A DNA stretch of 64,000 bases from NCBI GenBank assembly GCA_963705505.1, contig CAVPJU010000006.1, positions 160,001 through 224,000 on the forward strand. Direction: 5' to 3'. Shown piece after piece: positions 30,201 to 33,200 of the stretch. This DNA is from an uncultured bacterium (GTDB taxonomy: Bacteria; Desulfobacterota_D; UBA1144; Nemesobacterales; UBA2774). Made by a program: the position numbers. How positions within the stretch are numbered: position 1 is the stretch's first letter; every line of letters starts with the position of its first letter.

Positions 30201-33200
30201 GCACGCCGTATTTCTCAATGACATCCGGGACAAACGTTTCCTTATTCTTCATCGTATCGAGGAGTTTCACTTTTTCGGACACGAGCTGGCAAAAGTCCTT
30301 ATCCCCGGTGACGAGAACGACATCCATGCCCCGCTTCTCGTAGTCCCTCGCAATAGTGCCCATGATATCGTCGGCTTCGTATCCCTCCATCATGAACTGC
30401 GGGATGTTAAACGCGTCCACGACCTCGAAAATCTTTGAAAACTGCGGAACCAGGTCGTCCGGCGGCGCCCCTCTGTTAGCCTTGTAAAGCGGGTACATCT
30501 CGTTTCGGAAGGTGTCCCCCTTGGCGTCGAAGACAATCCCCAGGTACGCCGGTTTATAATCCTTCAGGAATTTGAAAAGCATGGAAGCGAACCCGTAAAC
30601 CGCGTTCGTCGGAAACCCTTTCGATGTCGTGAGTCCCCTTATCGCATAATACGCACGAAATATATATGAGCTGCCGTCGATGAGATATAAAACAGGTTTT
30701 TCCATAACCGTACAGTTTAGGTTTTAAAGGGATGTGTGTCAAAATGAGAGCGGCCCCATTCGGTCACTTTATATTTAATATAAATCGTGAATAATATCGT
30801 GAGAGTATCGTAATATCGGCCTTCACAAATATTTCGGTAAGGAGGGGGATACAATGAAATACCTTTTGATTCAGTGGATCATAAGCGCGGCAAGCCTTTT
30901 AATCGTGTCGTATATTATTCCGGGCTTCGTAGTGGAAGGGATAGGGACGGCCCTCATAGCGGCCGTAATCATAGGACTGATAAACGCTACGATAGGACTA
31001 TTTCTCAAGATCATTACGCTCCCTCTCTCGATTCTGACGTTCGGGATATTCCTTCTAATCATCAACGCACTTATGCTGATGCTCGCTTCTTCGGTAGCTC
31101 CGGGCTTCCACGTGGCCGGCTTCTGGACTGCGTTCTTCGCAGCCGTGGTGCTGGCAATAGTCAGCATGATCCTTCGTCACCTGCTGGGGGAAAAATAATA
31201 GTTCAGATACCGGGGCTGATTATAACTTTTATAGAGTCCCGAGCCTCTTCCACCATGCGGAACCCTTTCAGGGTCTCGGACAAGGGAAGCCTATGAGTTA
31301 CCATATCGAGCACGTTAACCCGTTTAGCCCGTATTAGCTCAAGGGCTATGGCGAGATCGGAAGGGGAAGCCGCATACGAGCTCACGGTCTTTATCCCCGA
31401 CCACCAGAAGTCGTTATAGGGGATCGTAATTGTTGCAGCAGGCCCCGAAGGGGCGAAAAATAATATCGTCCCGCCCGGCTCCGCGAGCTTGAGGGCGCCT
31501 TCGATCGCCGGTTGAGCGCCCGTGCATACGATAACCATATCGGCAAGGCGTCCTTCGTTAAGATTCCGCAAATAGGAAGCTATGTCCTCGCCTGCATGCA
31601 CCGTGTGATCAGCGCCGAAATCAGACGCGGCTTTGAGCCTGAAATCGCTTATATCGGTCGCAATGATACGTCCCGCCCCCTGAGCCCTCGCAAGCTGGAT
31701 GTGGAGGAGCCCCGTTATACCGCTCCCCATCACAAGCACGCAGTCGGTGATCTGAAATCCGGCGAGCCGCTGCCCGCGCACGACGCACCCGAGGGGCTCG
31801 ACAAAAGAGGCCTCGTCGTATGAGACCCCGTCAGGGAGCCTGAGCACGCCCCTGTCCACGTTGATGGCGGGTATTCGTATATATTCCGAAAAACCGCCCG
31901 GATCGAAATGGGTCGTCCTCAAGGTCCTGCACGCGGAATGGTTCCCCCTGAGACAGTAAAAACAGGTGTTGCACGGGACGTGGTGAGTGGCAATGATACG
32001 GTCGCCGGGCCTGAATTTTTCGACACCCTGGCCTATCTCGACTACCTCACCGGCCACCTCATGGCCGAGCACCAGAGGAGCCTTCGGAAGGCGGTACCAT
32101 TCCATGAGGTCGCTGCCGCAGATACCGCTTGCATGGACCCGCATGAGTATCTCGCCCGGACCTGTCCCGGGAACGGGCATATCCTCGAGCCGTATATCTC
32201 TGTTGTTATAGTACATGGCGACACGCATATTCTTGGGAGCGCTCCGGGAACTTGCTTTTATGGAAACTTGCCGGGTTTTAGCTTTTATACGCTTGCTACC
32301 TTCTTGGATTCCTCGTTCTTTATGGATAAGAAGAGGTCGTGCGCCTGTTTGGGCTTATTATTTTCGTGGACTATCGACCGGATCGCCCTGATTACGGCTA
32401 CAGGGTGGTCGTTCTGCCATATGTTCCTGCCCATGTCCACACCGACGGCGCCCTGCTGAATTGCATTATAGGTCATCTCCAGAACGTCCATCTCGGTTTC
32501 TAATTTAGGCCCTCCGGCAATCACTATGGGCACGGGACAGCTCGTTGTAACCTTCTCGAACTCCTCGCAGTAATAGGTCTTGACTATATGAGTGCCAAGC
32601 TCGGCGCAAATACGGCAGCAAAGAGCGAGATACCTCGAGTCCCTTTTCTCGAGCTCCTTTCCGACGGCAGTAATGCCCAGCACGGGAATTCCGTATTCCT
32701 CACCCTGATTGACGAGCTCCGCGAGATTGAGGAGCGTCTGGCGCTCATGCTCACTGCCCACGAATACCGATATCCCGACGCCCGCGACATTCAGCCTAAT
32801 GGCGTCCCTGAGGGAAGTAGTAAGGCCCTCGTCCGAAAGGTCGGGGCCGACGATGCTCGAGCCGCCCGAGACCCTTAAAACCACATTCGCGCACGATTCG
32901 GGGTCTACGGAGCTCCTGAGCACTCCTCTGGTCAGCATGATGGTATCCGCATACGGGAGCAGGGGTGTTATCGTGTCCCTGGGGACCTCAAGCCTGTGTG
33001 TGGGGCCCAGGAAATACCCGTGGTCGAATGCGACCATGACCGCCCTCCCCGTCCGCGGGTTTATTATCCTCGCCATTCTGTTTTTCATTCCCCAGTCCAT
33101 AACCGTAACACCTCTCATTCGTTGGAATTTATCACACAAAATTTAAAGTAACCGGGGTTAATTGTCAATCAAAGCCGGGCAATATATGAAAAAACCGATT

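What a model noticed while it worked through the whole genome (the two positions that open the first line are those of the whole stretch)
31203..33100. LsrF thiolase paired with a threonine-dehydrogenase-like enzyme outside any AI-2 operon: candidate 5'-deoxyadenosine sal [...]
lsrF (52% to the enterobacterial thiolase) is paired with a Zn-dependent dehydrogenase, with no other lsr gene annotated. The pair is proposed to act after MtnP/MtnA: oxidising 5-deoxyribulose-1-phosphate at C4 gives the LsrF substrate (3-hydroxy-2,4-pentanedione-5-phosphate), which is cleaved to acetyl-CoA and DHAP, an alternative to the aldolase of the DHAP shunt.
Evidence so far: Pair adjacent in 30 of 30 order loci, lsrF 76-94% identical in 47 of 61 genomes. 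In 80 loci of the dehydrogenase from many bacterial phyla and archaea, lsrF lies within 2.5 kb in 58; mtnA is a neighbour in 2, one as mtnA-lsrF-dehydrogenase-ahcY. Of 40 outside genomes with the pair, 38 have mtnA and 15 a class II aldolase. The phylum has mtnP and mtnA but Pfam class II aldolase/MtnB in 1 and RLP in 1 of 120. The chemistry is inferred from the known LsrF reaction (Swiss-Prot name, call 139).
(Added by a program. Inside this text positions count along the whole contig: contig position 160,001 is position 1 of the stretch shown here. "Call 12" and the like, gene names such as g00115 and contig names such as C1 are that model's own, and its searches are not shown. The text may have been shortened before it was handed on; [...] marks where a part breaks off. 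The agent that wrote the report below was given it as the finding of a first reader that could run no searches.)

Follow-up and report, generated by a model that had tools for sequence, protein, structure and literature searches.

The report
LsrF-dehydrogenase pair for SAM-waste salvage
Two adjacent genes, one labelled as a quorum-sensing enzyme (LsrF) and one a zinc dehydrogenase, probably form an undescribed and untested way of turning the sugar waste of S-adenosylmethionine enzymes into DHAP and acetyl-CoA, standing in for the usual aldolase in many bacteria and archaea.

Summary
Observation confirmed: lsrF (32285-33100) and a polyol-type Zn dehydrogenase (31203-32228) form a two-gene unit; the genome has mtnP and mtnA but no other lsr gene, luxS, class II aldolase or RLP. 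Better tests support the idea. lsrF and class II aldolase avoid each other in three phylum samples (p 7e-10, 2e-9, 6e-16; 6.3 of 10 independent pairs agree, none oppose). Where lsrF lacks the dehydrogenase, an aldolase-II/SDR fusion is found (11 of 12 against 0 of 24). lsrF also sits beside class II aldolases, an RLP-cupin fusion and mtnA-mtnP. Best reading (0.6): 5-deoxyribulose-1-P is oxidised to the known LsrF substrate and thiolysed to acetyl-CoA plus DHAP. No enzyme was assayed. Against: 28 of 60 pair genomes keep an aldolase, and about a fifth of two samples have neither route, mostly with mtnA. New here: this lineage lacks dxs (6 of 6) yet keeps the MEP pathway. No paper found; this scan reached the same idea on other DNA at least eight times.

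The parts
32285..33100 (-). lsrF-type class I aldolase-fold thiolase, 271 aa; K174, D26, H27, D222, R225 match E. coli K203, D57, H58, D251, R254
31203..32228 (-). Zn-dependent medium-chain dehydrogenase, 341 aa, polyol/secondary-alcohol type (C37, H56, E57, E144; structural Zn C86/89/92/100; GxGxxG and D192, NAD-type; family signature H82-H83)
33140..33168 (-). sigma-70-like promoter match TTGACA-17-TAAATT, 40 bp before the lsrF ATG; position fits, but the number of matches in the region is no higher than in shuffles (3.3)
33109..33116 (-). Shine-Dalgarno-like octamer 8 nt before the ATG at 33100, favouring this start over the TTG at 33139
   Evidence: read from the sequence
32229..32284 (-). 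56-bp spacer between lsrF and the dehydrogenase; no terminator-like match on the coding strand; co-transcription inferred, not shown
   Evidence: RNA contigs uninformative
30854..31198 (+). convergent 4-TM membrane protein (PF04020); bounds the unit, not part of it
33466..33921 (+). divergent CMD-family gene; bounds the unit, not part of it

Best explanation
The pair is a housekeeping exit for the product of MtnA. 5'-deoxyadenosine from radical-SAM enzymes goes by MtnP to 5-deoxyribose-1-P and by MtnA to 5-deoxyribulose-1-P (known steps of the DHAP shunt; genes shown here, activity inferred). The Zn dehydrogenase oxidises its C4 hydroxyl with NAD+ (inferred), which gives exactly 3-hydroxy-2,4-pentanedione-5-phosphate, the named substrate of LsrF. 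LsrF binds it as a Schiff base on K174 and transfers the acetyl group to CoA, releasing acetyl-CoA and DHAP (inferred from the E. coli enzyme). This fills the slot of the class II aldolase, avoids free acetaldehyde and pulls a reaction whose aldol cleavage equilibrium is unfavourable (about 1e-4, PMC6079011). Methylthioribulose-1-P may be a second substrate.
For: Shown by calls: (a) tight coupling: 65 of 80 adjacent in both orders; 60 of 63 dehydrogenase genomes hold lsrF in a 201-genome sample, 51 of 60 within 3 kb; 25 of 29 and 25 of 30 lsrF loci in two more phyla have the dehydrogenase within 1.5 kb. (b) avoidance of Aldolase_II, as lsrF+Ald+/lsrF+Ald-/lsrF-Ald+/neither: 38/34/118/11 of 201 (p 7e-10), 3/27/60/21 of 111 (p 1.6e-9) and 1/28/93/19 of 141 (p 6e-16); on an mtnA tree of 129 genomes, 10 independent pairs, on average 6.3 the same way and none the other way, median p 0.03. 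(c) partner exchange: an aldolase-II/SDR fusion in 11 of 12 lsrF genomes without the dehydrogenase and 0 of 24 tested with it, directly behind lsrF in four, at three or more places of the LsrF tree: LsrF nearly always has an oxidoreductase. (d) neighbours that act on MtnA products: class II aldolase within 3.5 kb in at least 6 of 28 genomes that have both, also L029/L030, L442, L469; RLP-cupin fusion directly upstream in 3 genomes; mtnA-mtnP 3.4-4 kb away in 2 related genomes; mtnA-aldolase-ALDH-lsrF-dehydrogenase on one strand in L469; mtnP in L059 and L502. (e) catalytic residues invariant in 186 LsrFs; dehydrogenase closest to ketose reductase and threonine dehydrogenase folds. (f) 17 ORFs with a radical-SAM-type cysteine motif in the genome.
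Against: No assay, mutant or metabolite. mtnA co-occurrence does not discriminate (71 of 72 against 123 of 129). 28 of 60 pair genomes in one sample also hold a class II aldolase, and Pfam Aldolase_II mixes several functions. Genomes with neither route mostly keep mtnA (18 of 19; 20 of 21; 8 of 11), and 5 of them tested have no RLP, so further exits exist. About 11 Nitrospirota-sample genomes, and G102 and G205, have the fusion without lsrF, so the fusion need not feed LsrF. Direct mtnA neighbourhood is rare (0 of 80, 1 of 80). The residue matching E. coli D251 is Asn in 74 of 186 (76). All controls are MAG samples; the tree uses mtnA as a stand-in for the species tree and rows I chose.
Confidence: 0.6

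Rival explanations
1. Same slot and chemistry, other main substrate: the pair oxidises and thiolyses another ketose-1-phosphate made by MtnA, such as methylthioribulose-1-P (giving methylthioacetyl-CoA) or ribulose-1-P from ordinary nucleosides (giving glycolyl-CoA).
For: All the genomic evidence (42, 68, 92, 58, 75) points to an MtnA product, not to one R group; RLP-cupin neighbours are known from methylthio-sugar routes (PMC10663253 passage); D251/N251 dimorphism may mark two specificities.
Against: Only the 5-deoxy sugar gives the known LsrF substrate, and the LsrF pocket residues checked are those of the E. coli enzyme; 5'-deoxyadenosine is made by every organism with radical-SAM enzymes.
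Confidence: 0.13
2. LsrF acts here as a plain class I aldolase that splits 5-deoxyribulose-1-P to DHAP and acetaldehyde, and the dehydrogenase only reduces the aldehyde.
For: Explains the avoidance of class II aldolase equally well; LsrF has the class I aldolase fold and lysine (PMC2728841 passages); the aldehyde-reducing enzyme of the DHAP shunt is unknown (PMC13474568 passage).
Against: The dehydrogenase has the Glu ligand and fold of polyol/secondary-alcohol enzymes, not of ethanol-type ADH; LsrF passes the thiolase equivalog cut-off and fails the aldolase ones; a second aldolase beside, or fused partner of, a class II aldolase would be redundant.
Confidence: 0.1
3. In this lineage the node runs biosynthetically: LsrF condenses acetyl-CoA and DHAP, and reduction of the other carbonyl gives 1-deoxy-D-xylulose-5-P, replacing DXS.
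For: No dxs in G000 (ispA abuts tlyA where dxs usually lies, order recalled) or in 5 of 5 relatives; dxr, ispD, F, G, H, pdxA, pdxJ present; no HMG-CoA reductase, no RLP. The diketone is one reduction from DXP.
Against: It cannot explain the family: four archaeal pair genomes lack dxs but archaea use mevalonate (recalled); Syntrophobacter fumaroxidans has lsrF (PMC10787695) and, as I read the table's first MEP column, Dxs (PMC10663253 supplement); it does not explain the aldolase pattern; G000 has an AceE-type E1 (126), mutants of which bypass Dxs (PMC10663253).
Confidence: 0.07
4. The pair degrades AI-2 (DPD) taken up from outside or formed spontaneously, as LsrF annotation and two papers assume.
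For: Name and active site (6, 76); papers read lone lsrF in ammonia-oxidising archaea and Syntrophobacter as AI-2 processing (PMC11442133, PMC10787695; passages).
Against: No lsrK, G, B, R or luxS in G000; no LsrK orthologue in 5 of 5 pair genomes tested (best hit 29%); the AI-2 route needs a kinase and isomerase, not a dehydrogenase; no reason for the aldolase pattern.
Confidence: 0.04

Closest known systems
E. coli LsrF, 3-hydroxy-2,4-pentanedione-5-phosphate thiolase of the lsr operon (b1517; PDB 3gkf, 3glc, 4p2v)
   Same: 51.5% identity, above the equivalog cut-off, same lysine, aspartates and phosphate-binding arginine
   Different: No lsr operon, kinase or isomerase; paired with an oxidoreductase; lacks the N-terminal arm of about 30 residues; D251 is Asn in 74 of 186 relatives
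DHAP shunt / 5-deoxyribose salvage (MtnP or MtnK, MtnA/DrdI, Ald2/DrdA; PMC6079011, PMC10986504, passages read)
   Same: MtnP and MtnA present; same proposed substrate and DHAP product
   Different: No class II aldolase; oxidation plus thiolysis to acetyl-CoA proposed in place of aldol cleavage to acetaldehyde; genes not clustered with mtnP/mtnA in this genome
Threonine dehydrogenase plus 2-amino-3-ketobutyrate CoA ligase (Tdh/Kbl)
   Same: Same logic (recalled): a Zn dehydrogenase oxidises CH3-CHOH-, a CoA-dependent enzyme takes off acetyl-CoA; same fold
   Different: Far below Tdh cut-offs, 30% to E. coli Tdh, separate clade with an HH signature, partner is a Schiff-base thiolase, not PLP-dependent Kbl
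MTA-isoprenoid shunt (RLP 1,3-isomerase plus cupin methylsulfurylase; PMC10663253 passage)
   Same: Acts on the MtnA product; an RLP-cupin fusion lies directly upstream of lsrF in three genomes
   Different: No RLP in this genome; product there is DXP
Bifunctional aldolase/short-chain dehydrogenase (PRK08324; RhaEW-like, function recalled)
   Same: Takes the dehydrogenase's place beside lsrF in some genomes
   Different: Not in this genome; also occurs without lsrF

Membership tests
LsrF thiolase (NF006081) | score above the curated cut-off | tested here: met
   407 vs 297 bits
LsrF thiolase (NF006081) | K203, D57, D251 (named in PMC2728841 passages or the E. coli alignment), H58, R254 | tested here: met
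   K174, D26, D222, H27, R225; D251 is not invariant in relatives
LsrF thiolase (NF006081) | CoA-dependent cleavage of the diketone phosphate | not testable with these tools
   needs an assay; the reaction is taken from the E. coli annotation and the title of Marques 2014 (seen only as a reference)
Lsr AI-2 uptake and processing system | lsrK, lsrG, lsrACDB, lsrR in the genome | tested here: not met
   genome 93.6% complete
L-threonine 3-dehydrogenase | TIGR00692 / NF003808 cut-off and grouping with E. coli Tdh | tested here: not met
Zn medium-chain dehydrogenases, polyol type | Cys-His-Glu catalytic Zn site with EP motif, four-Cys structural Zn, Rossmann fold | tested here: met
   invariant in 59 aligned sequences; model pLDDT 95, TM 0.88-0.89 to ketose reductase and Tdh
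DHAP shunt | MtnP (or MtnN + MtnK) and MtnA | tested here: met
DHAP shunt | class II aldolase Ald2/DrdA or MtnB | tested here: not met
   a homologue visible only by fold was not searched
MTA-isoprenoid shunt | RLP in the genome | tested here: not met
   (one RLP query)
ADH synthase AroA' of the archaeal-type shikimate route | TIGR01949 / NF005556 cut-off and dehydroquinate synthase II | tested here: not met
   190 vs 299 and 204 vs 241 bits; PF01959 absent

The most novel reading that the evidence does not exclude
The diketone phosphate known from AI-2 breakdown is an old hub of SAM-waste metabolism: LsrF plus a dehydrogenase is the main 5'-deoxyadenosine exit in many syntrophs, nitrifiers and archaea, the quorum-sensing role is a late recruitment from it, and in this dxs-less lineage the same node is run or tapped to make DXP, giving a natural thiamine-free entry into the MEP pathway from acetyl-CoA and DHAP.
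Probability: 0.07. Interest if true: 0.92.

Novelty: new variant of a known kind. Interest (0 to 1): 0.68.

Why it matters
Every cell with radical-SAM enzymes must dispose of 5'-deoxyadenosine, and many genomes have MtnP and MtnA with no known third step (noted for cyanobacteria in PMC8102628). lsrF-type genes were in 72 of 201, 30 of 111 and 29 of 141 genomes of three phylum samples, so this may be a common missing step. It would also overturn the reading of lone lsrF genes as evidence of AI-2 quorum sensing in archaea and syntrophs. The test is a two-enzyme assay with a known product. The dxs gap in this lineage touches a stated open question (172 species without Dxs and no known substitute, PMC10663253).

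Tried and rejected
mtnA co-occurrence as evidence: 46 of 50 pair genomes over cut-off, but 194 of 201 in the control: dropped. Prediction 'neither route means no mtnA': held weakly in one sample (3 of 11 against 4 of 190, p 0.004) and failed in two. Link to the archaeal-type shikimate route: no dehydroquinate synthase II. Conserved neighbours of the pair: 148 of 395 clustered neighbours scanned, none recurrent outside close kin. mtnA loci of 30 pair genomes show no aldolase or lsrF within 1.5 kb. 'E. coli LsrF is nested among partnered LsrFs': seen in both trees but the alternative is not rejected (AU p 0.23), so it is only suggested. RLP as the third route in genomes with neither: 0 of 5. Expression: one metatranscriptome with 5% of words; three short pieces, none bridging the genes; no conclusion. 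Homologue names gave only generic labels. Literature: no paper for lsrF + 5-deoxyadenosine, deoxyribulose + salvage + thiolase, phosphonooxypentane + thiolase + deoxyribose, bifunctional aldolase + short-chain dehydrogenase + deoxyadenosine, Dadabacteria + deoxy-D-xylulose; lsrF + mtnA returned only unrelated hits; listings of 22, 24, 119 and 137 showed nothing on this route. The library lacks most subscription journals, Marques 2014 is not held, and bioRxiv supplements are closed. No complex prediction was run: binding is not claimed.

Full report
1. What is there. The minus strand carries lsrF (33100-32285, 271 aa) and, 56 bp on, a Zn-dependent dehydrogenase (32228-31203, 341 aa), bounded by a divergent CMD gene and a convergent membrane-protein gene. 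A promoter-like match lies 40 bp before the ATG (not above chance by count). The first protein scores 407 bits on the LsrF equivalog (cut-off 297) and below the aldolase models; it is 51.5% identical to E. coli LsrF and keeps the residues matching K203, D57, H58, D251 and R254. The second has the Cys-His-Glu catalytic zinc site, four-cysteine structural site and Rossmann motif; its model (pLDDT 95) is nearest to ketose reductase and threonine dehydrogenases, but it is far below the Tdh cut-offs and forms its own clade, marked by H82-H83, apart from E. coli Tdh, GatD and YdjJ/L (support 94). The closest relatives are titled Dadabacteria / Thermodesulfobacteriota MAGs.

2. The genome. In G000 (93.6% complete) I found no LsrK, R, B, C, D or G, no LuxS (28), no class II aldolase, no RLP and no dehydroquinate synthase II. 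It has mtnA, mtnP followed by a PfkB kinase, ahcY and 17 ORFs with a radical-SAM-type motif. mtnP, mtnA and the pair lie on three different contigs.

3. The pairing. Of 80 GTDB loci of the dehydrogenase, 65 have lsrF adjacent, in both orders; 56 of 80 metagenome loci hold it. In 201 genomes of the phylum of G018 (centre titled Desulfobacterales), 72 have lsrF at 52% or more (5 of them split), 63 the dehydrogenase at 44% or more, 60 both, 51 of these within 3 kb. In the phyla of G046 (centre titled Bathyarchaeota) and G002 (Nitrospiraceae) the dehydrogenase is beside lsrF in 25 of 29 and 25 of 30 loci. Many of the archaeal loci carry a distant sister form (32-37%); from gene context I take them for ammonia-oxidising archaea, which the tool does not name. 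Other neighbours vary, as for a housekeeping cassette (148 of 395 scanned).

4. 46 of 50 pair genomes have mtnA over cut-off, but so do 193 of 201 controls. That evidence is empty. I found mtnA near the pair in 0 of 80 and 1 of 80 loci.

5. Tests that do discriminate. (a) If the pair fills the aldolase's slot, the two should avoid each other. Counts as lsrF+Ald+, lsrF+Ald-, lsrF-Ald+, neither: 38, 34, 118, 11 (p 7e-10); 3, 27, 60, 21 (p 1.6e-9) and 1, 28, 93, 19 (p 6e-16). On an mtnA tree of 129 genomes that I picked from those with listed coordinates, lsrF changes state 27 times; of 10 independent pairs on well-supported branches 6.3 on average go the predicted way and none the other way (median p 0.03). 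(b) If LsrF needs an oxidised substrate, losing the dehydrogenase should need a substitute. Eleven of the 12 lsrF genomes without it have a 700-aa aldolase-II/SDR fusion, against 0 of 24 tested (of 60) with it; the miss has lsrF at a contig end. The fusion follows lsrF directly in four genomes, and this partner appears at three or more places in the LsrF tree. The three overlaps in the Nitrospirota sample are also fusions. (c) Where lsrF has informative neighbours they act on MtnA products: a class II aldolase within 3.5 kb in at least 6 of the 28 pair genomes that have one (the place table omitted 41 matches) and in L029/L030, L442 and L469; an RLP-cupin fusion directly upstream in G487, G466 and G451; mtnA-mtnP 3.4-4 kb away in two related genomes; mtnP in L059 and L502; the PfkB that follows mtnP in G000 follows the pair in four loci.

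6. Mechanism. 5-deoxyribulose-1-P is CH3-CHOH-CHOH-CO-CH2OP. Oxidation at C4 gives CH3-CO-CHOH-CO-CH2OP, the compound in LsrF's name. Thiolysis gives acetyl-CoA and DHAP. Shown: the genes, their residues, their coupling and distribution. Known from papers: MtnP/MtnA/aldolase chemistry (PMC6079011, PMC10986504, PMC8102628, PMC13474568; passages), the LsrF fold and lysine (PMC2728841; passages). Recalled: the thiolase mechanism (Marques 2014 not held). Inferred: both new steps, the substrate and the direction. The aldol cleavage has an equilibrium near 1e-4 (PMC6079011), which gives a reason to replace it, or to keep both side by side.

7. Against. Nothing is assayed. 28 of 60 pair genomes in one sample keep a class II aldolase. 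Genomes with neither route mostly have mtnA (18 of 19, 20 of 21, 8 of 11; 79 of 141 and 71 of 111 genomes were given to those calls), so other exits exist. The fusion also occurs without lsrF in about 11 Nitrospirota-sample genomes and in G102 and G205. Four archaeal and two Nitrospirota lsrF loci show no partner within 1.5 kb. D251 is Asn in 74 of 186 LsrFs. The genomic pattern cannot tell 5-deoxy from methylthio or plain ribulose-1-P, and it fits LsrF as a class I aldolase too, though the dehydrogenase type argues against that.

8. A gap in this lineage. G000 has dxr, ispD, F, G, H, pdxA and pdxJ but no dxs, HMG-CoA reductase or RLP; ispA and tlyA abut at C10:46261/46264; five of five relatives also lack dxs. 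The diketone is one reduction from DXP, so the pair is a candidate supplier here. It is not one in general: Syntrophobacter fumaroxidans has lsrF (PMC10787695) and appears to have Dxs (PMC10663253 supplement, first MEP column read as Dxs), and G000 has an AceE-type E1, a known suppressor target. I put this at 0.07.

9. What is known. Ten searches of the held library found no paper on this route; subscription journals are mostly missing. Two papers read lone lsrF as AI-2 signalling (passages). E. coli LsrF falls inside the partnered LsrFs in both trees, but the AU test does not reject the alternative (p 0.23). This scan reached the same idea on other genomes at least eight times, several with mtnA adjacent; I consulted these after forming my reading, did not check their loci and do not count them as evidence.

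10. Verdict. A real, widespread, unstudied two-gene cassette; a true LsrF-family member outside the Lsr system; most likely (0.6) an oxidative-thiolytic branch of 5'-deoxyadenosine salvage, and about 0.8 that it acts on an MtnA product in some way. New variant of a known kind; interest 0.68.

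Noticed in passing
G000 C10:45368-47034 (outside the window); G497-G501: dxs is missing in the genome and in 5 of 5 relatives while dxr, ispDFGH and pdxAJ are kept and no mevalonate or RLP route was found; ispA abuts tlyA. The source of DXP is unexplained.
   Followed up: partly
window 36333-37692 (-): An aminotransferase gene that looks like bioA (label recalled) is in two overlapping frames of 139 and 342 aa, whereas relatives have one ORF of about 452 aa at this place: a frameshift or an assembly error.
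   Followed up: no
window 35094-38765 (-): A biotin-synthesis-like cluster with a radical-SAM gene (labels recalled) lies 2-5.6 kb from lsrF; the link is seen only in close relatives.
   Followed up: no
L280:4380-5957, L281:9849-11432, L282:2213-3790: RuBisCO-like protein fused to a cupin, directly upstream of lsrF, with an aldolase-II/SDR fusion next to or near it.
   Followed up: partly
LsrF alignment, column of P0001 D222: The proposed catalytic Asp (E. coli D251) is Asn in 74 of 186 relatives, which form one clade in the tree.
   Followed up: partly
L180:1034-2080, L181:6280-7302: Class II aldolases beside the pair carry extra C-terminal domains (cupin; SCP2-like); a class II FBP-aldolase-like gene follows the pair in L057 and L178-L180.
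   Followed up: no
L196:5915-6967, L202: A sister clade of the dehydrogenase (38-41%, HH motif kept) occurs without lsrF, in L196 before a transaldolase-PGI fusion and glucokinase.
   Followed up: no
L184:5479-6405; L197:4076-5932: Divergent lsrF-like genes in other settings: one in a sugar ABC / DhaK / LsrR-like cluster, one (42%) paired with an unrelated Zn dehydrogenase.
   Followed up: no
mtnA tree, Nitrospirota sample (G471, G477, G453, G465, G407, G389 and kin): Two clades keep mtnA but have no lsrF or class II aldolase, and no RLP in 5 tested: a further unknown exit for the MtnA product.
   Followed up: partly
L004:7275-9026: In one close relative the lsrF and dehydrogenase frames are disturbed and partly run together; real fusion or sequencing error not resolved.
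   Followed up: no
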